64,000 bases of DNA from Schmidtea polychroa (lineage: Eukaryota), in contig CM097885.1 of the NCBI GenBank assembly GCA_044892525.1, forward strand, positions 59,396,001 through 59,460,000, given 5' to 3'. Below the pieces are notes generated by a model, which was not told where the DNA came from, ran no database searches, and saw only the letters and a program-made list of their open reading frames with translations. This document shows, piece by piece, positions 261 through 36,770 of the stretch (position 1 is the stretch's first letter; each line of letters opens with the position of its first letter). The position numbers were made by a program, and so were the translations under genes.

Positions 261-353
261 TTATTAAAATTTTATTAAAATATCTTTTAGTTTGATAGAG
301 TTTCATTACTATTATTAGTTGTTAATTTGTTTGAATATTATTATTTTCATTTC

Positions 354-557: not shown

Positions 558-572
558 TTGGTAGCAGCATTT

Positions 573-749: not shown

Positions 750-892
750 TATAATAATAATAAATGTTTTACACCATTACTTTATAAAATAAAAATGCTA
801 AACAGTTTCTGATTATCGACTAATTTTTAATCCGCTGGGGTCATTATGATTTTTCATACGCCATGTTTACAAGTTTACAGATTTCCTGTGAC

Positions 893-1080
893 CAAGCTAA
901 TAAGCAAGTGATGTGATTTCCAGTGTACCAGGGAAAGTACGCAATAAAGCAATATTGTATACTTATCTGGCGCAAAGAGAAATCTTCGCGTCTCCATCAT
1001 TGTACTTATGAGAGCCAAAAGCTCGAAACTAGTCTACTATTGGGAATTGCACTGGGTATCACAAAGCTTGTAAGGTTTAT
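893..1080 (+). mobile_element. ~190-bp hammerhead-bearing repeat (retrozyme/Penelope-like), degenerate copy
   Basis: Aligns to the reverse complement of 34434-34630; ribozyme core reads CTTATGA instead of CTGATGA (1005-1011). Confidence 0.7.
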
Positions 1081-3731
1081 ATAATTCAAATGTTAGACAT
1101 CCCTAAAAACATTCTACATCATATATATATATATATATATATAATATAACTGTGCGATGTTTGAACAAGAAAAATCACATCCAAGTAAAGTCATTTCCAA
1201 ATTGAATCAGCTATAAGCAAACTATTTGGACATTATCTTTATGTGACTTTTTTCGATTGCATACGTAATTAACTCAAAATTATGTGTTCAATTTTCATTA
1301 TGATGTTTGTGGATAAAACCGAATGTATTTCATCTATGTCCCGTAATTTTGAATGTATGCTCCTAGAAATTTGTGTACATTCATCTGGCAGTGTATTCAT
1401 TTTTCTGCTTTAGCAGATTAAATTTTGAAATGGTGTATTATTTATTAACAATGGGGTTATAATTTTTTTAAAGAGAAGCCTGTGACAGTATAAGATGAAA
1501 TTTTATATAAAAATAGCTTATATGACTTTTTTTAGTTATAAATATTCAAAAACTTCGCACACCACACTTAAAATATATAGTCACAAATTCAATTATTTTC
1601 AAAAATTCAAACATTTATTAATTACAATGTTTATAAGTCTAAATTTGTATTTACATAAAAACCTGTATTTATATAACCTGACAATGGCGGTATAAACAAG
1701 AGGTTGCTGAATTTCAGGAGATAGACAAATAACGTTTTACTTTAATGACGTACAATTCGCTTTTCCGTCAACTTCGAATACTCGAAAAGAAATATTATTT
1801 ACATTTATGAAGGTTTGGATATGCTACTAAATGGAAAAGCCAAATTCATTGTCATACGAGATGTTGTAAAAACTTCATTTAGTGAAAAATATATAAGATT
1901 CTAAATTCTTACAATAAACTATTTGGCTTTCTGCCTAGCACAAACAAGTAATGAAATCTAAATTCTCTTTTTGGTATTTAAAATTTTAGGGCAGTTTATG
2001 ATATACAAATGTTTATCAATGCATTCACCCTTCTACTGCAAGAACTTGTATAAAACTTTTAATAAAAGGTTCTCATATGAACCAAACCCGTTATTGTTTC
2101 AGGTCTTCATTTATGGCCGATTGAAAAGTTGTTTCTTATTACAGTATTAAAACAATTTTCATTGAAATAAATCTGCTATTGTTTAAAACACATTAATTAT
2201 CAGCCTTCATAACAATGAGTAATTATTGTTTAACTTGTTGTGAATTTGTAAAACTATTGCAAAATTTATTGAAACTAATAAAAGATTTATGATGCAAATG
2301 AAGAATGACGTACTAGAATAATGGAAAATGAAATGAACCGCGAAATGTATCAATATATTTTTATGGTGATGGCTCTTGTCTTTCCGGTGGTGGCATGGTG
2401 GCCATCCTTACTAGAATCACTTGATATTTTAGAATGATTTAAACAAGGTATATATCATCGACTAAAGATTTTTAAACAAAATAGAAGTATTTATAAAAAC
2501 TTGAGAGATTTATTGAAGTAAACATATTATACAAAAGCCAGAATTTATACAAAAACATATTATAAAACATATTATACAAATGCCAGAACTTACATATCCA
2601 AATTTTATTTAGTTATAATGATCATTTATGCTGATCGAATTGATTTGATGTTTTCCTTTTTTCCACATTTTTTTATTTGTTTTGTTTTGATATTTTGGTG
2701 GAAAATGTGTTTTCTTACTTTTTTGAAATATATCCTAAAAAAGATTGTACTGTATATTTATTTTTTACTACCCAATAAGTAATTTGATATTGTATAGAGT
2801 ATCTAATTGGATATTAGATTGTATAAATTTGTTGGATTTTAATTAATAAAGTCTGTTACTCTGACTTCTTGTGTTCTTTGGGAAACAAAATAATAGATAA
2901 CATTTTCAGCGTGAATATTGAATATTAAATATTTACAATTGAAATTTTTAGATAATAAAAGTAACCACTGAATCGATTGGTTTCTGCTACTTTCCACTAT
3001 CAAGGCTTTGAACGATGTAACAACAATCACCTCAAAACAAAACTTGTACTTCTCGGTCAATGGTTTGATATCGTTTATTATCCTTCTAGATTACTTCTCG
3101 GTTCCTTTCAAAGTTTCATATAAATCGTATTTTAGTTTTCTAATCGTCTTTCTCTTTTATTCTACTTTCAGTTTCTCCATAAATGACGCAAAATGCCAGT
3201 TGTTTACGAATTTTTTTCTTTTAAATAGTGAAATAATCCATTTAATTTAATTAGATGTTTTTAACATTATCTGGTTAATCTTCTTTTTACGGCTTCTTTA
3301 CATATTGTTTAAAAAATAAAAAAAACTAATTTGTTCCATGTACAACTTCCTAACAATAACCTGATTTTCACTTACTCTCATCAATAATTGTTTCCCTATT
3401 TCCCTATTGTTTGTTTTCATCATTGTTTACCAAACTTTTGTAACTTTTGTATGCTGTAAAATAATCCTTCTTCAACTTTGTTTTGGATATGTTCTCAACT
3501 ATTTCCTGAATAATTTTCTATTTATGGTGTCTTTGGTCTTTGCTTCCAAATAATCTTTTCAAGTCTAACGTTATTTTTTATTTCCATTTCTATTCTAACT
3601 CTTTTTGGATTATTTTCTTAATTTTGGGGTTTGTAATTTTCTTTTAATTCGTTTAATTCCTTACATCAACTTTTTGTTTATAAATTATCAAATTTTTTAT
3701 CTTTTTAGTAAGCTGGCAACTTACTATAAAG

Positions 3732-10700: not shown

Positions 10701-11055
10701 TACATTGTAATTTTTCAGAAGTAATTATCCAATAAATCAAAATTATTTTTTATTATTATCAACTTCAGTTGTTTTTCTAAAAAAAATTTTATTTTTAATT
10801 AATTTAATTTTAATTAAAATAAAAATAAAAAATTTTTAAAAATTTTAAAAATAGTAATATTATACCAAACTCACAATATACAACATGCAGCATTCGATCA
10901 TTTAAATATTTTCAAAATATCCATAGACTTGGTAATTTGAGCAGTAATTTTAGGATTCAAAGATCTTATCAGCACTGACTCACAAGTTATTCGCTTCCAT
11001 TAGTTACTCACATTTTTCGCAATCTTCTTAAAATCAGAGATATCTAATTTTTACT

Positions 11056-18019: not shown

Positions 18020-18607
18020 TTACGGATGAGGAACACTGCATTTCAGATTTCGTGAATTCTGGCTTTGCCTCCTAAGCAATTGCCGCTCAGCATTTGACCT
18101 TTTCCTGATTGCGGCTTCCTCTGAGGTTTCATTCTGTCTTCTTCTAAACTGTCTTTCGGCATTCAATCGACGCCGAATTGCCGTTTCTTCGGGAGTTTCA
18201 TTTAATCTCCTTAAATATTGCCTTTCTGCGTTTAGTCGTTTCCTAATTGCCGCTTCATCGGGAGTTTCGTTTTGTCTTCTTAACCACTGCCTTTCTGCGT
18301 TAAGTTTTTTTCGTTCTGCAGCTTCTTCGGGAGTTTCATTGAGTCTTCTAAAATATTGTCGCTGAGAGTTTAAGCGCTTCCTTACTTCGCATTCCTCTGA
18401 TGTTTCATTCTGTCTTCTTTTAGATTGCCTATCAGCATTTAACATTTTTTTAATTGCCTGAGCAACAGATTTATCGTTTTGATTGAATTGCGGATTAGCA
18501 TCAAAATCTATTTGCAATTCATCAGAATTATTGGAAATATCAGTGGAATCAGTTTTCAAGCAATTATCTAAGTTACTGGAGAATGATTGTCCAGCATAAT
18601 TGTTCAT
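18020..18607 (-). CDS. ORF with five 23-aa STPR-type repeats (Helitron RepHel N-terminus or FMBP-1-like DNA-binding domain)
   Basis: RRxNETxEE..R.RLNAERQ repeated 5 times with 69-bp period at 18074-18418. Confidence 0.6.
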   Translation of the reverse strand: MNNYAGQSFSSNLDNCLKTDSTDISNNSDELQIDFDANPQFNQNDKSVAQAIKKMLNADRQSKRRQNETSEECEVRKRLNSQRQYFRRLNETPEEAAERKKLNAERQWLRRQNETPDEAAIRKRLNAERQYLRRLNETPEETAIRRRLNAERQFRRRQNETSEEAAIRKRSNAERQLLRRQSQNSRNLKCSVPHP

Positions 18608-20906
18608 CGTTACTTTTATCGATCAAAAACCTTTGGATAAAAACAAATCAAACAGCATACAATACTTTACCTCTTAGAAAACTTTTCAAAAACAAATTGG
18701 ATTTGAAAGTCTGAAAATAAAAGTATTAATTTTAATCAAATCTAAATATTAATAATAAAAAATTTTATTATTAAATTGAATTTTAAAAACAATTGTGTAA
18801 CTTTCACAATTGTATCATGTTATAATTAACACTGAACTATAAATTTTTAAAATAACAATTATAGCATTTTTCTTTTTAATTAGAAACAAACTGCATTAAT
18901 AAAAATTAAAATACGAATAGAGTTTATAGAAAAAGAAATGAAAATTAATATTTATATGAACACAATGAAAAATAAATAAATATTCAACTTACATTTTATT
19001 TAAAAATTGTAAATTTCAAATGAAAATAATTTGATAAAATAAACAAATCTTTTAAAAGTAATTATTAAAACGAGAAGGAATAATATTAAATTAGATAAAC
19101 CAAAAACAAATACTGAAATCCTTAATTAGCTTATTTCATCTATTACTACATTTATAAACCTATATCATTTTTGATAAATGATGAGAATTACAAACGTTAT
19201 CGATAGAAAATTTCTTTTACGATTTATAGTTTAAGATTTATAAATATTTTGCAATAAAATTCGGTCTTCGCTTATGAGATTTTATATTACTGAATCTTGT
19301 TGATAGACAAAAGATGTTTTCATGTTTATGCTAATCTATAATGAAAATGTCATAATTATCGATTTCGGTGTAGTATTATATGATTTTTTAATATTAAGAT
19401 TAGTGTTTGTAATGCATTTCAAATTTTTGATCTCGTGTTACATGTGGAGGTAGGAAAACAAAATAAAAACTATATAGCGATAATTTACTATAAATTATCG
19501 CTATAAAAAATTGAAAATTAAAAAGTAGACAATATAAAAAGTCATTAAAAAACTAAAAGAATCCCCAAAAGAAATCTGTAAGAGAAATTAAAGAAAATCA
19601 AAGACGACAAACATTCACACTTGGTATATTTGGAATTTGAATCTTTTTTATATTTATGAATCATCTGAACGATTGTGTCTTTTGATTAACATTTGAATAA
19701 AAGTCGTAAATTTATATAATTGTTATAGTTTGATTATTATAAACTTAGTTGTCACAACTTTACATACATTCACCCCAGCTGTCCCAAGACAGTATTTTTA
19801 AAGGAGACTCTTACTATACACAAATAAACAAACATATAAACACAATATACATAGTTATTACAACATACAAATATTTAATTACAACATATATATAGTTACG
19901 AAAGCCGAACTGACCCATCCGTCTTCGATTGTCAAAAGGTGTTAATGAACAAAGTTATTCTAGATAAGTATTCAAAACTTTCATATCGTACGAAACTGGA
20001 GTCTACTCAAATGCGAGTTCATCCACAATATTAGTACAATCGTCAGATCAAGTGCCAATGCTTTCGTGTAAACATTGACTGCTGGAGCAAATATTTGTTC
20101 ATTTTCGTATTCAATAAAAACTTTATAAAAATTTCTTTCGTATCCCTATACCCTATCAATACCATTAGCCTGTCATGAAATAAAAACAATAATTAAATAA
20201 TCTAGCTAAAATTCAAATAAAGAGCTATTAAAAATGAATAAATTTTAATAGATAATGCGTTTAAACTATTTGATAAAATTTAATAACAACTAGTTAAAGA
20301 AAGATTGAAGGTGAAATTCCATTGCAAATAAGTTTCATATACAAATATTCTTTAATAAGATATTCCGTTCCTAAATTATCCAAACTTTGTATTTCAGCTT
20401 TGGCTTGAAGTCTTGAAAAGCATTCAACCTAAACAGTCAATATACAGTAAATATAGCATTCATAAATATGGCATCTATAAAATATTAATAACTAGATAAT
20501 AAATCCGTTTATCAAGTGGGCCACTGTTTATAAATACTCTTAAAATAATTTTATAGACCTTGTTTCGAGTTATATGTTCACTACCAATACCTGCCATATT
20601 GTATTATTGCTCAACAAAATATATAAAATGCTTTAATATTCGTTATTTTTATTCAGCTGCTACTTTGACTTCAATAATTCTTACAAATATTTATATTTAT
20701 ATTCATATAAAGAAATAACTCAATCTAATATTGAAAATATTTCTATAGAACCTTCCACTAATGTTCCTAAAATTAATCTAACATAATATGATGTGCCCCT
20801 CCAGGACAGAACCTTCTCCCTCCTTGACGAGGAAAAGTAATAAGCTGAAAATTTTTGGCTATTAATATGTAGGTCAACTCAAAAATTATGTAAGTCACAC
20901 ATACAC

Positions 20907-20910
20907 ACAT

Positions 20911-20993
<83 letters not shown>
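20907..20993. repeat. (TA)n microsatellite
   Basis: Pure TA run; further runs near 1120-1143 and 21219-21292. Confidence 0.95.
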
Positions 20994-21001
<8 letters not shown>

Positions 21002-21217
21002 GATTCTCCATTTCCGTAAAATGTTGACTTTCGTTTTGTGATGCCATGGTTTTGTCTAACTATATTTATAATTTATATAAAAAAATTAAATAACATAACT
21101 TGTAATATATTCTATAATTTGCTTAGGATTGTAAGATGTATTTTGGATTGTACTATAAAAAATTAATAAATGTTAATAGTAGAAAGAGTATTACTTTTAG
21201 TGATCATACTGCCCTTC

Positions 21218-21297
<80 letters not shown>

Positions 21298-21311
21298 TAG
21301 ATAGATATGTG

Positions 21312-21563
21312 CACTCCAGATCCTATAGGAATTCTCGACTCTCACATATTCTTTTGGTGAATGTAAATGGGGTATTACTTTTTTATTTTTGTACAGGTAC
21401 TTTTTTTGTTTAAAAACTTTTTATATCAATATACTTGAAATTAAATTCTCCATCTAATGACACTATGACCTTTATGGGGGTACCTGTCTAAAAATTAAAA
21501 GTAATACCCCCTTAGATTCACCCAAAAAATGTGAGAGTCAAGGATTCCTGTCGGACTGGAGTG
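21312..21563. mobile_element. MITE with ~70-bp TIRs
   Basis: CACTCCAG..GACTCTCACAT..GGTGAAT..GGGGTATTACTTTT mirrored at 21498-21563; TA on the right flank, TG on the left. Confidence 0.7.
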
Positions 21564-21714
21564 TACATTACTATATACTTTATTTACTCTATCTAAATTT
21601 CGAACACTATTTCCCTCTCGATAGACTGGTTCTATCACAATTTCAGTGAAACCATGTATAGGTAGAATTTAATTTCCTATAAGATGGTTAGATTTTATAT
21701 TTTATATATATGTT

Positions 21715-22205
21715 ACAGTGAATTTGTATTACCAGTGAGAATATATTTTCACTAACGTTTCAGTGAATTTATATCCAAACATTTATTTTGAACTTACACA
21801 TTAAATATTATTAGCCACAGAGCTACGGGTATTAATAGAATCCATAACTAAAACACGTTTATTATAAAAACACAAATATTATTAAAACAAATTATAACGT
21901 TAATTTGTTTGAGGAGTTTCTAAAAAATAATAATTAATGCATAAGTAAAGATTTCAGCATACAATCAAACATGCACAACATCATACCATTATTTAAATAC
22001 AAATTACAAAACGCCTCACAAATATAATTACATATTTAAAAAAATTAAAAAACTTTTAAAAACACTTCGCAGCTAGATGAAAAAAAGGCGACACATCAAT
22101 GAATACAAAATCACTAAATGTAACCAATGAATTTGTATCTTCATTGTTAGATATACATTCACTGCCGGCTTAGCGAAAATATATTTTCACTGGTAATACA
22201 AATAT
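21715..22205. mobile_element. TIR element, ~490 bp
   Basis: ~56-bp inverted repeats TTTGTATTACCAGTGA.AATATATTTTC at 21722-21777 and 22148-22203. Confidence 0.65.
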
Positions 22206-23479
22206 ATTTATATGAAAAATTAATTCTCTCTAAACTGGTTTGATCTAGAATTAAAAATGTTGTATTAATTTATTACTTTGTTGTAATTACACTGATAGAC
22301 TTCATAATTTATTAGAATATTCTTATTAATTTGTTGCCCGTCTTCGAAATAATGTATTACTTTATTGTAATTTACTTACATAATTTTATTACGTTGCAAT
22401 ATTTTTATTATTAGTTAAAATTTGATAAATATTTTACAAATTTGTTGAAATTTTCCGAAATATGTTATTACTTTGTTGTAATTTAATGAAAGGTTTCATA
22501 ATTTTGTGGTAATTAATTTGTGGTTAATTAATTGCGAAAATAATATATTACGATAATATGCTAATAAAAATATTAAATTTCTAAAAACGTGCAGGTAAAA
22601 ATATGAAATTGTGCGCGGCAGCGAATGTTAAAAATAAACTAATTACTTAAGTTGCTGTCAAGTATGTTTTTCAAAACTTACGAAAAGAATAAAACAAATA
22701 TATTTGCCAATTGCGGTGATTAGTACCATATTTAACCACTTTGGATTTATAATAATATATTTTATTAATTAAATTATATTAAGAAATTAACTTTGATATC
22801 ACAAAATGTCATTTAATTATTGTTTTGCCATTAAAGTTGGCCCATAAAATTTAAACTTAATGATTTCGATCATTAACTAAAGATTTTACCTGTAATTTTA
22901 CATCAGAATCAGTCATGTAAAATTTTTCATTTTGTAATCCAATCAAAATTCTTTTATCGGCTGGAGATAGAGCCAATATTTCATTTTTTTGAAATTGTAA
23001 TCTGTAATTATATTACTATTACACTATTAAAACTTATTAAAATATTCAAAATTGTCAAAAGATTTATTGTGAACGTAAAATTAAACTGTAATATACAATA
23101 ATTCGTCTGATATTAAAAATGTTTGTGTGGGTCATAACAAGAGCATTACTTATGACTGAGACAGGAATAAATACACTTTTTTCTGTAAATAACTCGGTAA
23201 CGGCTGGTTTCACACCTAAGACACATATGAGCATTTTGTAAGGGCATGGAATTCTTTACAATTTTCACAAAGTAATTTGTAAGATAATAAATATTTAAAA
23301 CACATTTGTCAGGCAAATGACTGAATGTGCATAACATGGGTAACGGGTAAACTGCGTTTTGAGTGAAAACTCCAATCGTGAGATAAATCACTACATCTAT
23401 TTATTTATTTAAATGTAGTTTGTTGAACTCATCATAAAGTTGCTAAATGAAATGCGAATCAATTTCTTGTAATAATAAC

Positions 23480-23640
23480 AACAGATTTCATTCTAATTAG
23501 AAAAGCATTCACAAAAGGTTTCGAATCCAAATACGAAGGTCCATCCAAACTCCTATCAATCAACAAAAACGTTGCCACAATAATTAAAAATAACAACAAA
23601 ATGAAAATAAACATAAGACGAATAAAACCTTACCACCAGA
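23480..23640 (+). pseudogene. Relic of a Ty3/Gypsy integrase C-terminus (GPY/F module)
   Basis: FILIRKAFTKGFESKYEGPSKLLSINKNVATII...KINIRRIKPY, in frame with the 23601 ORF. Confidence 0.6.
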
Positions 23641-23949
23641 ACCAAAACCCGCAAAACAATCCCCCAAAAGACAAAACACAAACTCAAACACAAACAAAAA
23701 CAAAACCAATTCACAAAAACATCACATCGTTGAAGCATTATCATACGTCTGGCCGCGACAGTCATTCAAATCAAGGTCATCTCGTTCCAATTCCTAATTT
23801 CTTTCGCAATACTTTCAGCACCTTTTTCATGGATTTCGATGAAATCAATAAACACCTGTTTGATGACAGCAGTTTTAGTTTCGTTGTCAACATCAACCAA
23901 CCTGAGGACATGAGACATTTGTTCGTTATGAGACACGTCTTAAGTTGAA

Positions 23950-24315
23950 TCAAACATCATCCCATAGTACTGACCTTTTCACTCTCTGTAAGATAGACTG
24001 ACGATCTTCGTTGCCCAGTATCCCAATAAATTCATTTTGTATTTTTCCAGACAAAAACGTTGCGGTATGTGTGTGAGATTTTACATAATCCAAGTGCCGC
24101 TGCAACAGGAGATCGTACTTGCTAAGTAGATCAACGAGTGCAAGAAAATTGCCATGATTATCAATGGATACAATGACTTCTTGATGTCTACGAAGGGCCA
24201 GATGTTGAGTGGCCAAGAACCTGACACAATCCACAAATCGTCTGAGCAGATCATTCCACAATTGGTTCTGTTCCTCCATATGCTTTAGTGTCATTTTGTC
24301 ATATGTGTTTCTCAT
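23950..24315 (-). pseudogene. hAT transposase fragment (ZMYM1/DUF4371-like)
   Basis: RFVDCVRFLATQHLALRRH...GNFLALVDLLSKYD..LQRHL...SGKIQNEFIGILG matches the family pattern FL..Q.LA.RGH..GNF...S..IQNE. Confidence 0.8.
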
Positions 24316-24858
24316 ATGCGTTTCTCATAATGTACTCTGGTTGACTGGAGCCGTTGAAAACAATAAACAGCAAAGACAATGCACTGCGTCATTTTTAACG
24401 GAGAATAGCAACTATTTCTTTATGTTAAAGAGAAAAAGGATACTTGTTTCCTGTATATTTCCCTATTTCCGCACCTCTAATAGCTCACATAATGCAATAT
24501 TCTTTATTTTGTTGTTCTATTATCTTTTCAAGAACTTCTGTGCTTTGGATGGTATATATAACATACCTTTTAATTTCGACAATCAGCTGCCATTTGTGTA
24601 AAAAGACAAACAATATATGCAAATATTTGTGGTCACCTTTAACTTATTTGGTTTATTTTCATTTTGACGAAAGATCAAATTAAATTCTATGCTTTAGTGT
24701 CTCAGACAAATAAAGGACACATATTTTTCAGTTTTTTCAATAACACACTTTTTATTTCTGAAACAGACAATCACTATTTCTATGATCATCAAAAATTCAA
24801 TCCACAAAAACTTCGATCATTGCGCTTCGGGTACAAAACAGATCGTGTCTCAGTTCTC

Positions 24859-25190
24859 ATAGATTCAACTAACATGTTTTTGAATGTTCATTATCATCGA
24901 GCTGATCTGCTCGATTTTGACGTCATTGAATCCTGTATACTCCACAGACTATCTACGGAAGTTAATCAACTGGCTACCAAAACAGATTACATTTCGTTTC
25001 TATGAAAATGACCTCAAGACATCTACAGATTCAACTAATACATGCTTTGAAATGTTCCTCATCATCAAGCTAATCTGGTGGATTTTCTTGTAAACCAACC
25101 CGTTATACTTCTCAATGCATCCACAGAAGTTAATCAACTCAGTCTGATCAAACTGATCAAATGTGTAAGCGTATTTTCAACTGATCACCA
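24859..25190 (+). repeat. Degenerate tandem duplication, ~167-bp unit
   Basis: AGATTCAACTAA...GCT.ATCTG..GATTTT and C.GAAGTTAATCAACT each occur twice ~167 bp apart. Confidence 0.55.
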
Positions 25191-27129
25191 AGATCCTATC
25201 TGTACAAATAAACTTTGGAGATTTGTTTTATTTATATATCGTCTCGACTACATTATTTTATTGTAGGGATTTTATCATAATTCGATGTCCCTACATATGC
25301 AACACAAATTTTCAGCTTTCCCTTTATCAAGAAATAAAGAATTAATTTTTGATTTTTTGTCAGAATGTTAGTTATTGCAACTGTCGTAATTACCAATAAT
25401 AATTTATTCTATTGTTATAAATCCTTTGTTAAATTATTAAATAAATTGAATACGTTAACTAACAAAGATTCTATGAAATCGGATTTGAATATAAATGAAA
25501 ACGAAAGGGAACTGTGAGAAACCTATGAATTTAACATTAAAATACTAATCAATTACTTTTCAATATCAGTTGCAAGTAAGCCAATAAGTTTCATATTATG
25601 AGATCTAATAATATCTTGATTGGCATCTAGTAGTGACAATTTCTGAATCAGAAGTTTTATACGGTAAATAAAGAAATAATAATAAATATATCCATAATAA
25701 TTAACGAATCTATCGAAATTTAAAATAAAATAAAACGAACAGCACCGGTTTGAACATTTGCGGGGTCATGTGCAAGGGGTCATTTGCAAGGTTAACCACG
25801 TGGCTATTTTTTTATTAATTTGCTTTGCTTTTTTTCAACCTAAGAGATTGGAATCTGCTATAATAAATTACTAATATAAAATATGAATGACATCACAACG
25901 TTGTATATAATATACTATATATATATATATATATATAACATATTTCAATAAGTTATTTACCAACTTGCAAAACTTAAATAAAAATATTCATGTATAACAA
26001 TTTTCTATCAGTATTTTGAAAGCTGCAATGCAATTATAACTTTGGAAAATGCAAATCATTAGTATCTTTATTTTAACTTTTAAAGAAACTGTTTGAATTA
26101 AAGGAAATTTTAATATATTGTGTAAATTTCTAATTTCTTTTTGTATTTAATAATATTATATAAACTTTCCAAAGTGCGGGGCCAGGTGCGGTCGGCCCTT
26201 AAAACGAGTTATGCGCATTTTAATCATAACGATATTCAATAATACAACTTCATAACTTGATACAGTATACAGTAAATATCGATCAGCCGATAATTTTTCA
26301 ATCAGCTTTGAAATTTTTTTTTCAATGAACTTTGAAACCTTTCATTAATAAATATTCTATTCCCTTTGTGAATTTTTGCAGGGGTTTAGCCTTTTATTTT
26401 ACGGACCCATTATTTAAAATTATTATTTTTAACTTTTTAAGTTCTTCAAGCTATGAACCATAATGTTTTTTACAACGGGTGCTAATTTGCACCGAATACA
26501 GATATGCGCATCTATAGGTGCATATACTGAATACCAAAACAAAAATTAGAATACAAGTTGATTGACACAACTTCTCTTGGCTTGATCTAACGATAGAAAC
26601 AAAGCAGGGTGATATATAAGTCCAGCCTTTAGAAATTTACTTAAATTTCTACACTAGGGATATATTTGTTATAATAGGCTAAGGAAATTTTTGAATTAAT
26701 ATCGTTATTTTTTGATTTTTAATCTAGCTAGTATTGGAATTGCTTAAAATAATTAATTCAATTAAAAAAACAAAAAATAAATATTTTTCAAGCAGAAAAG
26801 TTGAAGCATATTCATTGTTAAAATAACTTCGTTTAAAATTTATTAAAATAACAATTGTTACGTAACAGGTATAATTACAAAAAACCAAGTTGATTAATTA
26901 ATTAACATTTTTAGTCTGGAATATTTTTTAATTAGACATGAAATTTTTAAAACTATTTAATGCATTATTAAATCTGACTGGCATGCAAGTTTAAACTTAC
27001 ACCTGCTTGCCTGGAATAAGAATATAAGGTGGTTAGGTAATATTGGAGAAATGAATAGTTTATTGTGTGTGTAACATTCTTTTTATATTATGTAACGGGC
27101 GGATATAACGGGGGGATAAGGTCCGAGAC

Positions 27130-27378
27130 CAGCCATGGCCAACCGGTGGCCAGCGAAGCGTTTTGATGTGGCCCGGACACAATTTTAAAAATCAAATCAA
27201 TAATTGTCTTTTTTAGAATTCATATTCGAATTATGCATGTTTTTAATTTAAAAAATTGATTCTAAGTTTACTTGAATCGTAAAAACGAGTTATATTTATT
27301 TAAATGAATTTATTGTGGCCCGTGATAGTATTTTTCCGAAAATTTGGCCCTTCGATTGATTTGGGTTGACCACCACTG
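27130..27378. mobile_element. hAT MITE, 249 bp
   Basis: TIRs CAGCCATGGCCAACC and rc CAGTGGTGGTCAACC; 8-bp TSD TCCGAGAC/TCCTAGAC (7/8). Confidence 0.75.
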
Positions 27379-28821
27379 TCCTAGACCCTGAGTTTCAGAT
27401 ATTTCTGTTAAAACGCTGCCTTTCTGTGAAGATGAAATTTCAAATATTCTCCCTTTTTTGATTTTGAGAAAAAATCGAAAGTCGTAAATTTTAATAACTT
27501 AATTTATAAATACTAATATTTTGATAAAATCAGAACATGACAAAATTCGATTAATTGATGACTTGGAAAATGGGGAAGATCGCTATGAATTAAGAAGATA
27601 TCTGGGAATCACCAAAAAATAGTTTGGAACAACAATTTACATATACAAGAAATTTGGAGAAATTTCCAAAGGAAAAAGAGGTTGCAGCAAAGAAATCATT
27701 TCAGAAGAACAGTGAAATTAATGTGTGAAGTGTTTTAAAATATAAATTAAATTATTATTGTATGTTACCTGCATGATGAAATTCTTAATTATACATTAAT
27801 TATTGTTATCGAAATTCATCAAACAAATTATGATTTGATTTGTTTAAATGCTATTCGGTATTCGGTATTGATTTTTTCACTAATACCTGTAGTACAGGTA
27901 TTTGCAGAAAACAAAATGGTTCATGAAAAACGAGGCCTCGGCAAAATAAAACCCAATTACAATCTAAAATGTTTCGTGGGTCGAAATAAAAAAAATCAAT
28001 ATTAACAAATTAACACAAATTAACAATAATAAAATGCGAAATATAGATAACTATATAAACTTTAATCAAAACATCAATTATGACAATGAAGATATCTTTT
28101 AGTCACTAATTCCGTTGCAGAAAAATAACCTTTATTAAACTGAAAAACCAAAAAAAAGTTATTAAGGAATAAAAAATTCAATTTTCATAAATGTCTAAAT
28201 GTTAAATATGAAGGCGGGTCGCGCATTGGCCATCTATAAATAACTATATCAATTTGTAACTGTATTTTATCCCGTATAGATAGTTAATATATATATATGT
28301 GTATAATGCAATAAACAATTCGAATTTCGACATATTTTAGTAATTTTTTTGTTACAAAGACTTCAGGTATAAGAATTATGTTTGAACTCCAGAATATTAA
28401 ACTTTTTCGCTTTTTGACTCTAGTTCAAATTTAGATCCGGACTCAGCGAGTTTTCAAAATTTGGGAATCGTATTCGTTGAGTCCTAAAAATCCGAGTCTT
28501 TTGAAACCCTAGTTGTAGGTTTATGCAACCAGATGTTGTCACAACTACCTAGTTCTATTTGGACTAAAACTTTGTCCTTTTGTGATCTTAACTTTATTTT
28601 TTGGAATATTGTTCTATGATTTCTATGATTCTATGATACTTCTAAGTCCTCTTCTTCGAATTTTGGCGTATCATTGAGCATTATGCCACCAGCTAATTTA
28701 AGTTTATTTCAAAATACGAGTTCTGTTGGTTATGATGAGTCACCTGATGTACAACATTTTCAACATGAGTTTTGAGTGAAATGAAGCTTCAATGTCACTC
28801 CAACTTTTCTATTTCTTTGTA

Positions 28822-29029
28822 CAGTAATACCCCGTTTTACGTACACTAAAATAAAAGTATAAAACTACATGCATAATATCCCTCTTTTTCTTTTTCTTTA
28901 TATGTTTATTGTTTTAGTTTATTTCAAACATATTATTCATCAATAAAAGCAGTAGATTCATTTTACGTACATTTTTGCTTTACGTACAGGCTCCGGTCCC
29001 AAAGTGTACGTAAGTGCGGGGTATTACTG
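28822..29029. mobile_element. pogo/Tigger-like MITE, 208 bp
   Basis: TIR CAGTAATACCCCG..TTACGTACACT at both ends; TA TSD at 28820-21 and 29030-31. Confidence 0.85.
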
Positions 29030-30514
29030 TATATGATATGCAATTGTTCTACGATAATCGATATCTATGTTTCAGTAAAAATTGTTGAATAAAACAGATT
29101 CAAATTGTAAATCTTGAAAGCTAATAGAACACTATATCTACTAATCCATTCTATTTTCACCACTCTTGATTTGTCAACAATTTATTAGAATAGCTTCTCC
29201 CTAGGAATCATAATGAGAATGAACATTTTGTTATTCACTGTTGGCAACCGACTATCTAGATCTATATGGATGATTTTAAATTTTATTAAAGTTCATGTCT
29301 CTTAATGTTGTTAATTTTGATTGCTGGCATTTTAAACATACTTCTTTTCATGAATGAATGTCAGATCTTATTCCTGGTCATAAATATATTTCCATTAACA
29401 GGTATAAAGCTCAAGAAGTATTTGAAATTCTGTAAATCTGAACACTTTTGAAGGAAAAACTCCTGGAATTCCTGTGCTAATGTCAACTAGAATTCCTTCT
29501 TTTATTGGTTTCTGTCAGTGAAGCTACTTCAAGATTTTATTTACATTTTACACTTCTATACCACAATTTTAAATTTAAAACGGTTGATTAACATATAATA
29601 TGGTTCTATTGGAGACCACTGCATTTAATAATTCAATATATTGTTTTACATTATTTGAATTAAATGATTAGGAATTTGACCATATAATAAAGAATATTTA
29701 TCTTCGGCAATTTTAACAATCGGTTTTAAGGAATTGTATTTGCCGCATATAAGTTCTCTGAGATGGTCAGTGAGTCTTGTTCTTGGTGCCATTGGGGCTT
29801 AAATATGCTTTATTATATCCTCAAAAATGGCGGGAAATTTAAAGAATTCATAAAATAACATTGATTTTATCTTTGATTTTTCATTAATATTAATATTTCT
29901 ACATTTGAGGTTGAAATTTTGTGGAAAAATATGAAACTTTTTTGAAAAAGGATGAAACTTTTTTGGAAAAGGATGAAACTTTTTTGGAAACCCTGTAAGA
30001 TTTCATTTATTTTAATTACAAATATAGATAAATTTTTCACTATTTAACAAAAATTGATCGATAATTGTAAAGGATAAAATGAGATTTTAAAAGAAAACAG
30101 AAACTGATTCAAGGGTGACATTTGATTCTATTTTCCTTAGTCTATTTTAGTATAACTTTATGAAACAAATATTGCTTACAAGTGTTAAAACCATAATATT
30201 AAAGTTTAAATATTGAATTACTTTAGAACCATATTTGTACGAGCAGTAAATAGATAACCCTAGAATTGAATATAAAACTAATATTTTTGCATCATTTATT
30301 ACCAAATGGATCTGCATCCACCAAACAAAATACAGGGATATTTATAATAGTTGGGTCCCTAGAATTTAACAAATATCTGCAATTCAAGTCAGGAAATCCT
30401 TTTGCCTGTGATAAATAAAATACATGTATATATAGATCTCAACAATATACCAAATGGTACTGAAGTATTTTTTTTCCCAAAACCCAGTTATGACAGAAAC
30501 TTGCATCATACACT

Positions 30515-31420
30515 TATGTGATATGTTCAGTAAGTACTTAGCCTCGACAGGAAATAATCACTTTATAATAGAGATATTACATGTGATATCTTGGTTTTTC
30601 AAAGCTATTTTTGTTTAGAAAAAAATTCTCCATATCATTATTACATCAGAAAATATTAGATGATGTTGGATTTCAAAGCGTTATAAAGTTTCTGCTTTTG
30701 AAGAAAATTAATAGCCAAAACAATGTTGCACAACTGCAGAATGTTTATAAGAGTGAGTGCCCCTGTAAAACTATAATTTACAACTGGATTCGTGATTTTA
30801 AAAGTGGACAAAATAGAGTTTTTGATTTGGAACAAAATGGTAGATCTATGGAAGTTGGAAATGAAAAAAAAATGCTAGAGAAAATCATCATAACAGGTGG
30901 CTCTAACACAACGCCTAAACATCTCCAAAGGTATATTCCATAACTTGCTAAATGAAATGGGTATTTTGGAAACTGTGTTCACGATTTATGCCACCGTTTT
31001 GTTTGTTAACATGCAAGAAAAACTATTTAATTGTTATCAGAAAAACTTGAAATATTTGTTAATATCTTTCTGAAACACTTAATCAGAGAAGATGAGACAC
31101 CTCTAAGCCTTAATACATACATCAAACTAAAAGTGAATCTGCCGAATGAAAGATGCCAGAGGAGAACCATCACTGAAGATGAGAGCTGGTACAACTAACA
31201 AGAAATGTCTGATGTTAACAACCCTCTGGGACATGAAAAGCTTTCTCAAATGGATTTTGTTGCATTTTGGACGTGGTGTGACGTTGGTGAAAATGCGTGG
31301 AAGTTGGCGGAGTTTACATGGAGAAAAAAACCTTTACATGCTGCTTGTTTGTTGCTGAAAGTTTGAATAAAATCGTTTATATTTTGTCGAGTCTAATTAC
31401 TTATTATACGCACCAACTTT
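30515..31420 (+). mobile_element. Decayed mariner element
   Basis: HTH segment VIKFLL..VYKSECPCKTIIYNWIRDFKSGQ..D..NGR (30611 ORF), EDET at ~31088 (GDET motif), MLTTLWD; degenerate TIR cores 30525-30557 and 31377-31409. Confidence 0.75.
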
Positions 31421-34370
31421 TATATTAATGAATATTTATAGAATTAATCATTGTATTTATTGTCATTAATTTACAATCATATAATGATAGTCATTACAAA
31501 GGAATTTAATGTCTATGTGGGAGTCTACAAGCTCATATTTATGAGTGTAATGAGATGAGACCAATATTTATTGTCCAAATATGTGATTTTTTATTTTTGG
31601 AAATTTTATGCATTTTGCTTGTGTGTATAAATTAATTTTTCTATATTGTAGTCTGTTACTTATTGCCAAGGACCTTATTTATTGTCATTAAGGCCAGAGC
31701 CGGCTCAGAGGTCGGGACTTCGGGGATTTTTCGCTAGGCCCTCTGCTTTCATATTTCTAACAATATTTCTATGGCAAGTTTTAGACACCAAATGCAACGT
31801 TTTTACAAGTCGGGTGTTAATGTAGGTCTTTCCCTGAATAAACATCTCTTTCACTATGGCTGTTCTTCAGGGAATAGCCGACTTTTGATCTGGAAATCGG
31901 TTTCTGCCGGATTTTGATCAAACCGATTAATCAGTATCGGCACCAACGCGAAAGACCGATCCAAATAGCAAAAGAACGGGTTTTTAACAATTAAAATGAA
32001 ACATAAAAATATCTGTAAAAAAGTAAGTATTAAAAAATAACAAATACTTGACATTGACAATACATCCATTTAGTCATTATTTTAACTTCTAGACTTCTAT
32101 CTAGCGACCTTTAAACAAAGAAAACATTTACAATTAATATTAAAATACAAATTTATGTGAATATGTTTAACTGGATCTATTCGGAACAATCCGGATTGTA
32201 TCCGGAATCGGCAGGAAATTGACAATCGGCCCTATTGTTCTTTACATGTTTGTACATGTCATGCCATCTGCTACCTCCTTGTCTGCTGCAGCTGCTCCGC
32301 TCTTTTGATAATATTATCTAGGAATTAGCAGTAAAAAAGGTTTGTGCAAATCAATAAATGACTCATCATTTCTGTAATTTCTATTTGATTTATCATGGTC
32401 ACAAAGTCACAGAAAAAAATAGTCTCCCATTAACAACTACATTGAGTGTCACTTTAAAAATCCTTAATCTGTTAATAATCGTAATATTTACATTTTATTG
32501 ATAGTCTCATTTAATAGCTATTTGAAAATTACCGCTCTCGGTTTATTATACCATCTGAAAATGGCTATTATTTGCAAGCAACTCATAACTTACTGTAATC
32601 AATATAGATGGATAGAATAAATTACAAAAATTTCCATCAATCAACTTCTGGAAAGTTGCATCTTTTTCGACGACCAAAATGAATTTAATTAATGCCAAGC
32701 TTTCTAATATCAAAAATCAAAACAGATGACAGATATAAATAAGCATAAGTAATAACTTTGTGAAAACGTAAAGCCACTGGATAAATTAATGCCCTGTAAC
32801 AAATAACATCAATAATATGTTATAATACGCATTAAACATACATTATGTGAGGATAGACAATGAACAGGTTCATTAACTTTATGATTCAACATTACATCTC
32901 CATAAATCAATGATTTACTCGAAGCTTCCTTAAAAGGTTACATAATTAGTTTCCAATCATTATCATCAAAAATAAAAATATTAAACTTTAAAATAAATTC
33001 TCGATGAGGGAATTATATTTTTATAAAAATAATTCAAGTAAATAAATTATTTATAAATAATAATAATAATAAAAATATTATAATAAAAACTTCAGTAATA
33101 AAATAATAATAATAAACTGGGATTTGTTTAATCAAAACAATAACTAGCCCAAACCCAGCACGAAAATTACTCCAAAACTCAATTTGATGTACTACATTGT
33201 TTACACCAAAGCCCAATTGACAATGACTAAAGTGAAATTTAATAAATCCAGCCAATTGCGCTTTGTCTTAATTTTGATATTATACAGTTTTTATACAATT
33301 TAAATATGAAATATACACATTCTTCCAGCGAAGAAATAAAAATAGTGTTCTTGTCACAGTATTCCACAATGCACACGTTATTAGTGTGTATTTGTGCATA
33401 GGTTTAGTATAAAGCGACCCGACGTCCCAGATTATGCGGTTTTAATTTAATAATGTCCCGCATTACAACAAAAAATATCTGGTCACTTTATTTTAATGTG
33501 ATGATAGGATTTTTCTCAAATTACTATAATCTGGTTTTTGGAGTTATTTATTAACTATGCATGACTGATATGTTTCCTTGAAAGAACCAATAATAATTTT
33601 TGATTGGATTGGTCCATGTTTGGAAATTGCCAAAACTAACAAGATATTGGGAGCTCGATATTTTAGCATATTGGAATAACTCCTGTTACTCATTCGTGAT
33701 CTACAAAATCTTTTCTCTCATGTATTGAAAGAACATTCGTCTATATAAATAGATTTCCTGCTTCTCCAAATTTCCTCAACCAGACATTGGACTTATGTGG
33801 CGAAGATTTAAAATTCCCTCTTAATTTCTTTCCTTCACGCAAATACTTATCTTTTTGAATGCAATTAAATTGGTATTTAAATCTTGACATTGTTCTTTTT
33901 GAAATGTGAATGTTTGGTTCTAATTTGGCACAATGTATCATAATAATTTTTCTCGATATAATTTAATAATTTCTTTGCTGGACAATGGCCTCCTCTTGTT
34001 CCTTTTGATAGAGCCCCAGTCTTTTTATATTTGCACTACAATATTTGTGATTGAGTTTCGCTCGATTCCGAGAATACGGTCTACATAGTAATCACGTCAG
34101 TCTTACATTACGCCAATAATCCTTTTTTATCAGCAATGGAAATTCTGCAAAAAATGTATTATAAGTTAACTACATATTTCTATGGATTTGTTGATGCTCT
34201 ATATCAGGGTTTCCGAAACTATGTTCCGAGTAAATTTAGAAAATTGAATATATTCTACTTCATAATGAAAGACGAGCGACGGTTAAACTTCATTGAGTTT
34301 TAAGACGTCAAGAGCAGGCTTGATCAATTAATATTTCAAATGCAAAAAATAGATAATTTCACACAAGTAA

Positions 34371-34431
<61 letters not shown>
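34371..34431. repeat. (AAT)n microsatellite
   Basis: Pure AAT run left of the ribozyme element. Confidence 0.95.
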
Positions 34432-34433
<2 letters not shown>

Positions 34434-34434
<1 letters not shown>

Positions 34435-34630
34435 TAAACATTACAAGCTTTGTGATACCCAGTGCAAATCCCAATAGTAGACTAGTTTCGAGCTTTTGGC
34501 TCTCATCAGTACTATGCAGGCGACGCGAAGATTTCTCTTCGCGCCAGGTAAGTATACAATATTGTGGATTCAACTCTATTGCATACTTTCTCCGGTACAC
34601 TGGAAATCACATCGCTTGCAAAATAGCTTG
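34434..34630 (-). mobile_element. ~190-bp hammerhead-bearing repeat (retrozyme or Penelope-like pLTR fragment)
   Basis: Second copy at 893-1080; contains a hammerhead and a GAAA-capped 8-bp hairpin; flanked by (AAT)n on both sides. Confidence 0.75.
34474..34515 (-). ncRNA. Minimal type I hammerhead ribozyme
   Basis: Minus strand ATAGTA-CTGATGA-GAGC-CAAAA-GCTC-GAAA-CTA-GTC-TACTAT: 6-bp stem I, intact core, 4-bp stem II, palindromic ACTAGT stem III, GUC cleavage triplet at 34482-34480. Confidence 0.88.
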
Positions 34631-34633
34631 CAA

Positions 34634-34690
<57 letters not shown>
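34634..34690. repeat. (AAT)n microsatellite
   Basis: Pure AAT run right of the ribozyme element. Confidence 0.95.
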
Positions 34691-34691
<1 letters not shown>

Positions 34692-35689
34692 TAAAATCTC
34701 ACAATATTCATTTCCATTCGGGACAATCCAATCTTCTTTGAAATAGATTCAATAATAAAATCCAAATATTTTTGATTAACAAATAATTCAATATTCATGT
34801 AGAAAATATTCCTTTAGAATTGCATATCAACACTAAAGACTCAATAAATGGTAAACCTTTTCGTAGATTTCATATTTTTTATCAGTAACTGATGAACGAT
34901 TGACAAAACGTACAATTCTGACGCTAAATTACCTTGGTAATATTTGATAATTATAAAATTTACCAGTTTTTCGTTTTAATAAATGTTTATTGTTTGGAAT
35001 GAGCAAACTAATTGTATATTATTCACATATATCATTTATTAATAAATTAATACTCAATAATAAGGAAATCCAGAAAATATTTTTCAATAGTTGAAATCGC
35101 AGGCGAATTCATGGAGATTGAAAACCTAATTGCACAAATTAATCAAGAATCATATATTTAAAACATTAGGTTCATATAAAGATAATTTCATTTTAATCAC
35201 ATTTCTAATAATATTGAAAATTTAAGTAAAATTTTACACAAAAAAATCATCGAGATATAATTAATAGAATAAGCAACTATTTGAAAGTTAAATGACTTTT
35301 GCAAAATGGTAATTGTGGTTTAATTAAACAAAATACACACTAAAATAAATTAAATATGAAAACAAACTATTCATTAAAATGTTAATTTATTCATATTAAT
35401 AAAAGAAGACCATTTTTAAAATTTATTTTTACAATATATTTTGATAATATTTTAAAAAATATGCAATAAAATAACAAAATTAAGATGCAATAAAAACATG
35501 ATTTTATAATGTAAATTAATGATCTTAATTAACTTTTATGATTATTATTATTAAAAATTTTTATTTGAATAAAGATCTGAAAACATTAATCTACTTGGAG
35601 TAAATGTCTGTCGCTGTTGCGGTATCAAGGATTATTAAAAGATCCAGACTAGTAACTCGTTTAATTTCATAAAATGACTCTCCGGATCA

Positions 35690-36150
35690 CGGATCTTCTT
35701 TCAGTAATTGGAAGGTTATTATGGGATTTCTAATAAGTCTTAGTTATAAAGCCACAGCTATTGAATTGTGAAAATAACTAACACGAATGACGATGTCAAC
35801 CTTCAAAACATATCCACGATCTCTATCAAACTCATCCCAATTAACATATCTTTTAATAATACTATCCATTTAAGTCTGGCCTAATAATCAGAATTCAATA
35901 ACGGGAAGTTGTCTATCCATATAAATTATTAACATCTTAGTACGTCATTTGAGTTGACTTATCTGCCTCAACATGATGGTTGTTGATAAATGTCATTCCA
36001 ATCTGAATACCTACCTCAAACAAGCGATAAAGCTCTCGATTTTGAATAGGTTTTATTTTTTCAACGCTGAGATAGAAACCATAGATAGTGCTTCCAATCC
36101 ATTTTCAACAAATGATTTGTCTCTGAAGGTTTCAAAAACATCAACCAACA
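35690..36150 (-). pseudogene. Relic of a protein-primed DNA polymerase B (Polinton/Maverick type)
   Basis: Manual translation gives LLVDVFETFRD..GLE, LFEVGIQIG, Y*DVNNLYG*, GYVLKVDI and HNNLPI, collinear with pPolB motifs DVFE.FR / E.GIRGG / YLD.NNLYG / GY.LEVD / H.DLP; stops and frameshifts present. Confidence 0.75.
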
Positions 36151-36770
36151 GTCCAAATTAAGGTTTATTAACATATAATCTAACTACGCTCACAGTTGCA
36201 TAGTGTTGGCGGGTGCACTACCCGGATGACCCCCTTCAGTAGCGCGTTTAGTCTAGAGGATGAATGCCCATATCGCTTACACTCGTCTTGTTTTTGGTCA
36301 TCGCCGAGCAGGACCCGTACATAATCTACCCTCCAACATAGCACCCGTGAATCGCTTCACGTTGGAACTGTGCTATGCCGGCGAGACGCCAGTAGGCAGG
36401 TGAGCCACCTCCTTCGGACTACTCCCTACTGAGGCCTCGACTTCCTAACCCTGACGGCCGATAGAAGGACTTACGTCTTTTCATTCTGTCGCCCACCGCA
36501 AGAGTTTCCGCTGGGATTACTAATTGACCGATGCTCCTCATTTTTCCGAAAAATTCTCAATGCTATTTACTAATCCCTTATTATTTCCCAATCACAACAA
36601 ACAGGATAACACATACATAAACGAGAAATTTTTATTATTAAATTTACTATACAAACACCTCGAAAATTTATACACGGAAATTTACACGAACTGAATAACA
36701 CCAAGGTAGAAAACGACATCAGAAAAGTTCAATCCTCTACGGAGAAGGAGGCCATGTTTCGGGAAAATCC

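What the first reader, a model, noticed from the sequence alone, without database searches (positions are those of the whole stretch)
34474..34515. Intact minimal hammerhead ribozyme with palindromic stem III
Seen: all core nucleotides, a perfect 6-bp stem I, 4-bp stem II, and stem III reduced to ACTAGT. Established: minimal type I hammerheads with palindromic stem III occur in Penelope-like elements and retrozymes and cleave as dimers. Invisible to ORF-based annotation.
Basis: partly seen in the sequence, partly recalled or inferred. Interest (0 to 1): 0.72.

Follow-up and report, generated by a model that had tools for sequence, protein, structure and literature searches.

The report
U1-headed hammerhead retroelement in planarian spo11
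A real self-cleaving hammerhead RNA motif sits inside a 200-base mobile element in an intron of a flatworm meiosis gene, and the element unexpectedly carries the first 16 bases of the U1 splicing RNA just ahead of the ribozyme, which may mean it borrowed a U1 gene start.

Summary
The hammerhead is real: type I, minus strand 34515-34474, predicted cut after 34480. It is the only descriptor hit in the window, with 0 hits in 300 shuffles; Rfam Hammerhead_1 gives 27.4 bits, below its cut-off. Its 6-bp/4-bp/palindrome shape is the canonical metazoan (retrozyme, newt-like) form, not the Penelope minimal form.

It lies in a ~200-bp dispersed element that folds strongly on the ribozyme strand (z -6.3). 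A second, core-mutated copy lies at 892-1082. Copy A is flanked by (ATT)19 and (ATT)20 and a 7-bp direct repeat. It sits in sense in intron 4 of an intact spo11 gene of a Schmidtea-like planarian. No tandem copy or Penelope RT was found in the window.

Best reading: a solo copy of a non-LTR retrozyme family, likely a poor cutter as a monomer, that captured a U1 gene start and perhaps its promoter, as newt satellite 2 uses an snRNA-type promoter. Cleavage, promoter, circles and mobilising enzyme are untested.

The parts
34474..34515 (-). Type I hammerhead ribozyme, all core nucleotides present; predicted cut between 34480 and 34479
34481..34486 (-). Palindromic stem III (ACUAGU): one A-U pair plus a 4-nt palindrome; dimerisation element
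34470..34520 (-). Predicted extension of stem I (4 further pairs after a 1-nt bulge); not kept in copy B
34432..34631 (-). Copy A of a ~200-bp dispersed element; branched fold, -75.5 kcal/mol and z -6.3 on this strand (208-nt stretch)
34540..34555 (-). U1 snRNA head: 16 of 16 identical to nt 1-16 of S. mediterranea U1A1; 18 of 19 to U1B1 (to 34537)
34521..34546 (-). GAAA-capped hairpin between the U1 head and the ribozyme, in the place of U1 stem-loop I
34547..34594 (-). Hairpin whose 3' strand holds the start of the U1 head, so that the head is paired in the full-length RNA
34596..34621 (-). 5' arm of the closing stem; lies 41-66 nt upstream of U1 +1 (candidate snRNA promoter position, untested)
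34441..34466 (-). 3' arm of the closing stem (26 positions: 20 Watson-Crick, 3 G-U, 0 A-C, 3 other mismatches)
34462..34468 (-). One-mismatch match to the U1 stem-loop II loop heptamer (exact in copy B at 1046-1052); weak
34634..34690 (-). (ATT)19 array on the 5' side
34371..34430 (-). (ATT)20 array on the 3' side
34691..34697 (-). 7-bp direct repeat, candidate target-site duplication (intron positions +6 to +12)
34367..34373 (-). Second copy of the 7-bp direct repeat (overlaps the last array unit by 3 nt)
32929..34702 (-). Intron 4 (1774 nt, GT-AG, phase 0) of spo11; hosts copy A in sense, with the cut site 223 nt from the donor
20294..35112 (-). Intact spo11 gene, 12 exons, 328 aa, 299 of 328 residues identical to S. 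mediterranea Spo11
892..1082 (+). Copy B, 86% identical; ribozyme at 999-1040 with G5 changed to U and a stem I mismatch; U1 head at 959-974 with 2 mismatches; no ATT arrays

Best explanation
This is a solo, retrotransposed monomer of a planarian non-LTR retrozyme-type family. SHOWN in sequence: an intact type I hammerhead in the middle of a 200-bp repeat with shared ends in two dispersed copies, a strand-biased RNA fold, a U1 snRNA 5' head 76 nt upstream of the cut site, microsatellite arms with a 7-bp direct repeat, and a sense position in spo11 intron 4. INFERRED: (1) An ancestral hammerhead unit fused with the start of a U1 gene, keeping U1 nt 1 to about 19 and 76 nt upstream, which may hold the Pol II snRNA promoter (about 45% likely). 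(2) Tandem source copies elsewhere are transcribed, pair through the palindrome, cut as double hammerheads and are ligated into ~200-nt circles. Cut-to-cut monomers would carry the upstream promoter inside the RNA, which solves the external-promoter problem. (3) An RT in trans, most plausibly of a Penelope-like element, copies the RNA from the tip of the closing stem and inserts it at AT-rich or microsatellite sites. This explains copies that begin and end at the stem tip with the ribozyme intact. (4) A solo copy has no partner and prefers a core-sequestering misfold, so it cuts the spo11 pre-mRNA rarely and is tolerated.
For: Architecture matches the canonical metazoan form (a single pair capped by a palindromic tetraloop in axolotl HHR_Amex1, weak as monomer, efficient as dimer). 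Unit size is within the 150-400 nt range of non-LTR retrozymes, which are reported for platyhelminths. Dispersed monomers of such families are common. There are two copies in 64 kb, 33 kb apart and inverted. Fold z is -6.3 on the ribozyme strand against -4.3 opposite. Arm mismatches are 3 G-U and 0 A-C on the ribozyme strand. Monomer and dimer energies favour the dimer. The U1 match has a chance of about 4e-8 per element; the best of 100,000 shuffles reached 13 nt once and the rest of the window 8 nt. Newt satellite 2 is cited as using an snRNA promoter. spo11 is intact.
Against: No tandem copy, circle, transcript or RT partner was seen; only 64 kb could be examined. The two copies give no covariation: 13 of 65 pairs differ, 11 break, 2 become G-U and 0 are compensatory. 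The G-U bias rests on 3 positions. Copy B has no ATT arrays and no flanking repeat longer than 5 nt. The 7-bp repeat has a chance of 3.5e-4 if exact and 1.5% with +-4 nt slack. Copy B lacks 9 nt between the candidate promoter and the U1 head. No planarian promoter consensus was available. A review states that retrozymes seem to lack promoters and that most invertebrate type I ribozymes cleave well as monomers. In one preprint 8 of 9 predicted Xenopus dimers did not cleave. The U1 match was noticed first and tested afterwards.
Confidence: 0.68

Rival explanations
1. It is the terminal repeat (pLTR) or a truncated end of an autonomous Penelope-like element, the ribozyme being the usual pLTR motif.
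For: Penelope pLTRs carry palindromic type I hammerheads. Several clades show an insertion bias for microsatellites. Xenopus retrozymes resemble pLTRs. S. mediterranea has Penelope-linked motifs.
Against: Helix sizes and the missing extra nucleotide do not fit the min-HHR. Both copies share both ends rather than showing variable truncation. No RT or GIY-YIG sequence lies next to either copy.
Confidence: 0.12
2. The U1 head is not a promoter relic but a working mimic: the RNA pairs with 5' splice sites of nascent pre-mRNA and so is held near, or inserted next to, splice donors.
For: The head includes the whole splice-site-pairing segment. Copy A's insert begins at intron position +13. A transcript starting at 34555 leaves the first five bases unpaired. 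A U1 loop II heptamer follows the ribozyme (exact in B).
Against: There is only one such insertion, and no gene was found near copy B. The intron 4 donor pairs no better than others (-4.4 kcal/mol; range -1.6 to -9.6 over 11 donors), while the element's own hairpin arm pairs at -11.9. There is no U1-70K loop in either copy and no Sm-like site shared by both.
Confidence: 0.08
3. It is a MITE-like DNA transposon with ~26-bp imperfect terminal inverted repeats that carries the ribozyme and the U1 piece passively.
For: The ends are self-complementary, the size is 200 bp, there is a candidate target duplication, and many fold-back elements lie in the window.
Against: Only 20 of 26 arm positions are complementary at DNA level, the arms do not reach the element ends, and the asymmetries are shared by both copies and favour G-U on one strand.
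Confidence: 0.05
4. The host has domesticated it as an intronic ribozyme that tunes spo11 expression.
For: It is in sense, near a donor, with an intact core in a meiotic gene, whereas the other copy is mutated.
Against: Near-perfect arrays and an intact direct repeat point to a young insertion, which explains the intact core. No orthologous intron could be checked.
Confidence: 0.03
5. It is a chance arrangement of letters.
For: The score is below the Rfam gathering cut-off.
Against: 0 of 300 shuffles gave a hit, and the motif is repeated in a second copy.
Confidence: 0.01

Closest known systems
Metazoan non-LTR retrozymes (Cervera and de la Pena 2020, PMC7229834; Li, Clavereau and Pollet preprint 10.64898/2026.07.22.740005)
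   Same: Canonical type I hammerhead, ~200-nt non-coding unit below 50% GC, strong self-pairing, dispersed monomers, candidate target duplication longer than 4 bp.
   Different: No tandem copy in the window. It carries a U1 snRNA head, not mentioned in the parts of these papers that I read, and has microsatellite arms on both sides of one copy.
Newt and axolotl satellite 2 (HHR_Amex1 type)
   Same: One-pair stem III with a palindromic tetraloop and dimer dependence. Newt satellite 2 is reported to use an snRNA-type Pol II promoter (Coats 1994, seen only as cited in PMC2220036).
   Different: Different phylum and a shorter unit (200 vs ~330 nt). Here the evidence is a literal U1 5' end, not a tested promoter. 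Whether satellite 2 also holds a U1 5' end could not be checked (paper not held).
SINEU of crocodilians (Kojima 2015, PMC4494074)
   Same: Short retroposon with U1-derived sequence.
   Different: In SINEU the U1 or U2 part is the 5' head, no promoter-like sequence was found and no ribozyme came up in the passages I saw. Here the U1 piece is internal, preceded by 76 conserved bases and followed by a hammerhead.
Penelope-like element min-HHRs (PMC4209133)
   Same: Type I, palindromic stem III, probable dimer action.
   Different: Min-HHRs have helix II of 7-8 bp, helix I of 4-5 bp and an extra base after A9 (S. mansoni families), and some lie in pLTRs beside an RT-endonuclease ORF. None of this holds here.
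Schistosoma Sm-alpha and Sj-alpha
   Same: Flatworm short repeats with a canonical type I hammerhead and a small-RNA-gene-derived part.
   Different: These are tRNA-derived with a Pol III promoter. ARAGORN finds no tRNA here, and the borrowed part is from U1.

Membership tests
Type I hammerhead ribozyme | Core CUGANGA, GAAA and UH in a three-way junction open at stem I | tested here: met
Type I hammerhead ribozyme | Rfam RF00163 gathering score (34 bits) | tested here: not met
   27.4 bits; none at gathering score
Type I hammerhead ribozyme | Site-specific self-cleavage | not testable with these tools
   needs transcription assay
Canonical metazoan HHR | Helix I 6 bp, helix II 4 bp, helix III 1-2 bp with palindromic loop | tested here: met
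Canonical metazoan HHR | Conserved loop 1 / loop 2 tertiary contact | tested here: inconclusive
   Loop 2 resembles the Rfam consensus loops; the stem I extension is predicted in A but broken in B
Penelope min-HHR | [quoted passage not shown] | tested here: not met
Penelope-like element | Flanks an RT (plus GIY-YIG) ORF as a pLTR | tested here: not met
   Pfam scans; the only RT found is Ty3/gypsy type
Non-LTR retrozyme | Non-coding repeat of 150-450 bp with a type I HHR and a strong fold | tested here: met
Non-LTR retrozyme | Tandem copies in the genome | tested here: inconclusive
   None in 64 kb; the rest of the genome was not available
Non-LTR retrozyme | Expressed as linear and circular monomer RNA | not testable with these tools
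   no transcript data
Non-LTR retrozyme | Target-site duplication longer than 4 bp | tested here: inconclusive
   7-bp repeat around copy A with its arrays; none above 5 nt at copy B
U1 snRNA gene | 5' splice-site-pairing end | tested here: met
U1 snRNA gene | U1-70K loop, Sm site and four stem-loops (motifs partly recalled, partly) | tested here: not met
   (no U1 match)
snRNA-promoter-driven repeat (newt satellite 2 type) | Proximal sequence element upstream and Pol II start at the snRNA +1 | not testable with these tools
   no planarian U1 upstream sequence or PSE consensus found
SINEU | snRNA-derived sequence at the 5' end of the element | tested here: not met
   76 conserved bases precede the U1 head
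tRNA-derived SINE (Sm-alpha type) | tRNA-like head | tested here: not met
   ARAGORN 0 genes, (decayed heads could be missed)
MITE | Near-perfect terminal inverted repeats at the very ends | tested here: not met

The most novel reading that the evidence does not exclude
A natural U1-hammerhead chimera. A planarian retrozyme fused with a U1 gene start, carries the normally external U1 promoter through a self-cleaved circular intermediate, and makes capped RNAs that begin exactly like U1. In the boldest form the U1 end pairs with 5' splice sites and steers new insertions next to donors, as at spo11 intron 4 (+13). Antisense insertions would plant a perfect cryptic donor.
Probability: 0.3. Interest if true: 0.78.

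Novelty: new variant of a known kind. Interest (0 to 1): 0.55.

Why it matters
How animal retrozymes are transcribed is open: a 2020 review says they seem to lack promoters, and how U1-headed SINEs are transcribed is also open. An element with a literal U1 start, conserved upstream bases and a ribozyme makes one solution directly testable in a tractable animal: an external snRNA promoter carried inside a cut-and-circularised RNA. If it holds, planarians and salamanders reached similar designs independently. It also gives a natural case of a dimer-gated ribozyme tolerated in sense in an intron of a meiotic gene. The hammerhead alone is ordinary.

Tried and rejected
Plus-strand decayed ORF around the insert: rejected.

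Penelope RT or endonuclease nearby: none in the Pfam scans. These covered 17 long ORFs, six frames of 33100-35350 (plus frames from about 33570), minus frames of 22000-36200, six frames of 1-7000 and 62 of 62 ORFs of at least 62 aa in 7000-36300. Short or heavily decayed fragments could be missed.

Further copies or tandem units: a profile from the two copies found only these two. tRNA head: none. Box C/D snoRNA, since the core overlaps a C-box-like word (motif recalled): no Rfam match and no CUGA downstream within the element. Relatives in bacterial and archaeal genomes: 0 exact matches to a 27-nt conserved stretch. PDB sequence search of the exon piece: 0.

Covariation: none between the two copies. 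The first arm comparison was off by two bases and was redone.

Prior record of this family: not found in the 11 supplementary files of Perreault 2011 or in 1 of 2 files of Cervera 2014. The supplement of Cervera 2020 could not be read and bioRxiv supplements are closed; both may list planarian retrozymes. Coats 1994 is not held.

Full report
OBSERVATION. The motif is present as described on the minus strand, 34515 to 34474. It has a 6-bp stem I, CUGAUGA, a 4-bp stem II that starts with the usual G-C pair and closes a CAAAA loop, GAAA, the palindrome ACUAGU and a GUC triplet. The predicted cut is between 34480 and 34479. It is the only hit of my descriptor in the window. Shuffles gave 0 hits in 300 at that stringency, 5 at 5/3 bp and 31 at 4/2 bp. 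Rfam finds nothing at gathering score. In E-value mode it aligns the whole Hammerhead_1 model at 27.4 bits, E 5.8e-5 in 216 nt, with a cut-off of 34.

TYPE OF RIBOZYME. In Cervera and de la Pena 2014 (parts 1-2 of 4 read), helices of 6 and 4 bp with a 1-2 bp palindromic helix III define the canonical metazoan hammerhead. The Penelope minimal form has a longer helix II, a shorter helix I and an extra base after A9. This motif is canonical. The S. mediterranea Penelope motif in their supplement is a different sequence (1 of 2 files searched). Stem III is effectively one pair plus a palindromic tetraloop, like axolotl HHR_Amex1, which cleaved 6% in an hour as a monomer and much better as a dimer (PMC7229834, parts 2-4 of 6). 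Folding agrees. The monomer minimum (-8.2 kcal/mol) mispairs the start of the core with the palindrome. The open core scores -6.1 and a 1-bp stem III -0.4. A strand-swapped double hammerhead scores -17.6 against -16.4 for two monomers. These are nearest-neighbour estimates without tertiary contacts. Against dimer dependence, a review says most invertebrate type I motifs cleave well as monomers (passages).

THE ELEMENT. The ribozyme lies in a repeat of about 200 bp (34432-34631). A second copy lies at 892-1082 on the plus strand, 86% identical, with the same ends to within a few bases. A profile of the two finds no third copy. Copy B has G5 changed to U and a mismatch in stem I, so it is probably dead. 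Copy A folds into a long closing stem, two hairpins and the ribozyme arm: -75.5 kcal/mol, z -6.3, 0 of 200 shuffles as good. The opposite strand gives -59 and z -4.3; copy B gives z -4.6. Of 26 positions in the closing stem, 20 are Watson-Crick, 3 G-U, 0 A-C and 3 other. This favours an RNA helix over DNA inverted repeats but rests on few positions. The copies give no covariation: 13 of 65 pairs differ, 11 break and none is compensatory, as expected if B decays neutrally.

FLANKS. Copy A is flanked by (ATT)19 and (ATT)20, the only arrays of six or more such units in the window. Outside both arrays lies a 7-bp direct repeat (34691-34697 and 34367-34373); its chance is 3.5e-4 if exactly abutting and 1.5% with slack. 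Either the arrays arrived with the element, or it entered an existing array. Copy B has neither arrays nor a flanking repeat above 5 nt.

HOST CONTEXT. The minus strand next to the element matches Pfam TP6A_N and the Spo11 Toprim domain. The only database hit was a UniRef S. mediterranea topoisomerase-type protein (1 of 30 candidates); the name Spo11 is my reading of the domains. A 12-exon model (35112-20294), all 11 introns GT-AG, gives 328 aa with 299 identical. The host is therefore a planarian close to S. mediterranea but probably not that species (inference). A neighbouring giant LTR element fits the planarian Burro description. The element is in intron 4 (34702-32929), in sense. The insert starts at intron position +13, and the cut site is 223 nt from the donor.

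THE U1 HEAD. Bases 34555-34540, on the ribozyme strand, are identical to nucleotides 1-16 of S. mediterranea U1A1 and match U1B1 at 18 of the first 19 (supplementary table of PMC6312358; 12 of 14 files searched, part 2 of 3 of the table read). I first recognised the motif from memory and then checked it, so the statistics are after the fact. They are still strong: about 4e-8 per element from composition; a best prefix of 13 nt once in 100,000 shuffles and 8 nt elsewhere in the window. At up to 3 mismatches only the two copies match, with 0.16 expected. After the head comes a GAAA-capped hairpin where U1 has stem-loop I, then the ribozyme. Just after the ribozyme, copy B has the 7-nt loop of U1 stem-loop II exactly and copy A has it with one mismatch; a 7-mer is weak evidence. 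There is no U1-70K loop and no shared Sm-like site, and Rfam does not call U1, so this is not a U1 gene. The head is preceded by 76 bases conserved in both copies. Vertebrate snRNA core promoters lie about 60 bp upstream of the start, which here falls on the 5' arm of the closing stem. I could not test this: no planarian promoter consensus was found, and schistosome snRNA promoters are described as highly derived. Copy B lacks 9 nt in this interval.

MECHANISM. The most economical model is a non-LTR retrozyme monomer. A transcript starting at the U1 position would lose its upstream bases on retrotransposition, and a linear cut-to-cut monomer would insert with the ribozyme split. The copies keep the upstream bases and an intact central ribozyme, and they end at the tip of the closing stem. 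That fits a circular or multimeric template made from tandem source copies by dimer cleavage and ligation, copied by an RT in trans. An uncleaved read-through monomer would fit too. Penelope-like elements are the proposed helpers in the literature and several clades prefer microsatellites (passages), but none was found in the window. Without a partner, the solo copy should cut the spo11 pre-mRNA rarely, consistent with the intact gene. All these steps are inferred. The bolder reading, that the U1 end guides the RNA to splice donors, has one suggestive position for it. Against it, the intron 4 donor pairs no better than the others (-4.4 kcal/mol, range -1.6 to -9.6 over 11) and the head is paired within the element at -11.9.

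COMPARISON. It works like a non-LTR retrozyme. Membership is not proven, because tandem copies and circles could not be tested. The nearest design is newt satellite 2, reported to use an snRNA-type promoter (seen only as a citation; the paper is not held). SINEU shares a U1-derived part but has it at the 5' end (passages). Sm-alpha is the flatworm precedent, with a tRNA-derived part (passages). PMC6155905, PMC6765202 and PMC5680766 were seen as passages, and the 2026 preprint as parts 1-3 of 5.

NOVELTY. Searches for hammerhead with Schmidtea (7 papers), U1 snRNA with hammerhead and satellite DNA (0 papers), U1, hammerhead, retrotransposon and SINE (25 of 95 listed), and related terms showed no description of this family or of a U1-headed retrozyme in their listings. 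The supplements of Perreault 2011 lack it. The library omits most subscription papers and repeat databases, and the supplements of Cervera 2020 and of the preprint could not be read.

VERDICT. The ribozyme is real and of a known kind. The U1 head makes the element a new variant worth a genome-wide look. Interest 0.55.

Noticed in passing
window 36204-64000: Giant Ty3/gypsy LTR element (LTR starts 24,813 bp apart, 99.9% identical over the 2,984 bp visible). One 3720-codon stop-to-stop frame holds gag, a viral fusion glycoprotein domain, protease, RT, RNase H and integrase, with separate ankyrin and RING-MATH ORFs downstream. It fits the planarian Burro elements, though there the MATH domain is described as inside or upstream of the polyprotein.
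   Followed up: partly
window 35112-36204: The downstream LTR of that young element ends 1.1 kb upstream of the spo11 start codon on the same strand and could affect spo11 transcription.
   Followed up: no
window 35760-36180, minus strand: Broken reading frames with words that recall a family B DNA polymerase of Polinton type (seen in the translation; label recalled, no Pfam hit).
   Followed up: no
window 33550-34000 (minus) and 30590-31200 (plus): Decayed pieces that recall Tc1/mariner-type transposases inside spo11 introns (labels recalled, no Pfam hit).
   Followed up: no
window 23450-25200: hAT-like remnant in spo11 intron 10 (weak DUF4371 match, E 0.005, below cut-off).
   Followed up: no
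window 34540-34555, plus strand: The antisense strand of the element carries a 5' splice site fully complementary to U1, so antisense intronic copies could act as strong cryptic donors.
   Followed up: partly
window 96-202, 573-749, 3726-3886, 21289-21586; 11040-11253 with 21832-22035: Several fold-back, MITE-like elements and an inverted pair of a 214-bp repeat.
   Followed up: no
window 20915-21294 and 1090-1143: A 220-bp stretch enclosed by two long (AT)n arrays; a short (AT)n run also lies 40 bp after copy B. No hammerhead there.
   Followed up: partly
window 13122-14048 (+) and 18020-18622 (-): A 308-codon frame without a Pfam match, and a 200-codon frame with 23-aa repeats and a weak STPRs match.
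   Followed up: no
window 354-557: Assembly gap of 204 N, about 330 bp from copy B.
   Followed up: no
window 34622-34645: A 12-bp tandem duplication at the 5' junction of copy A; copy B has a diverged version of the same two-part motif.
   Followed up: partly
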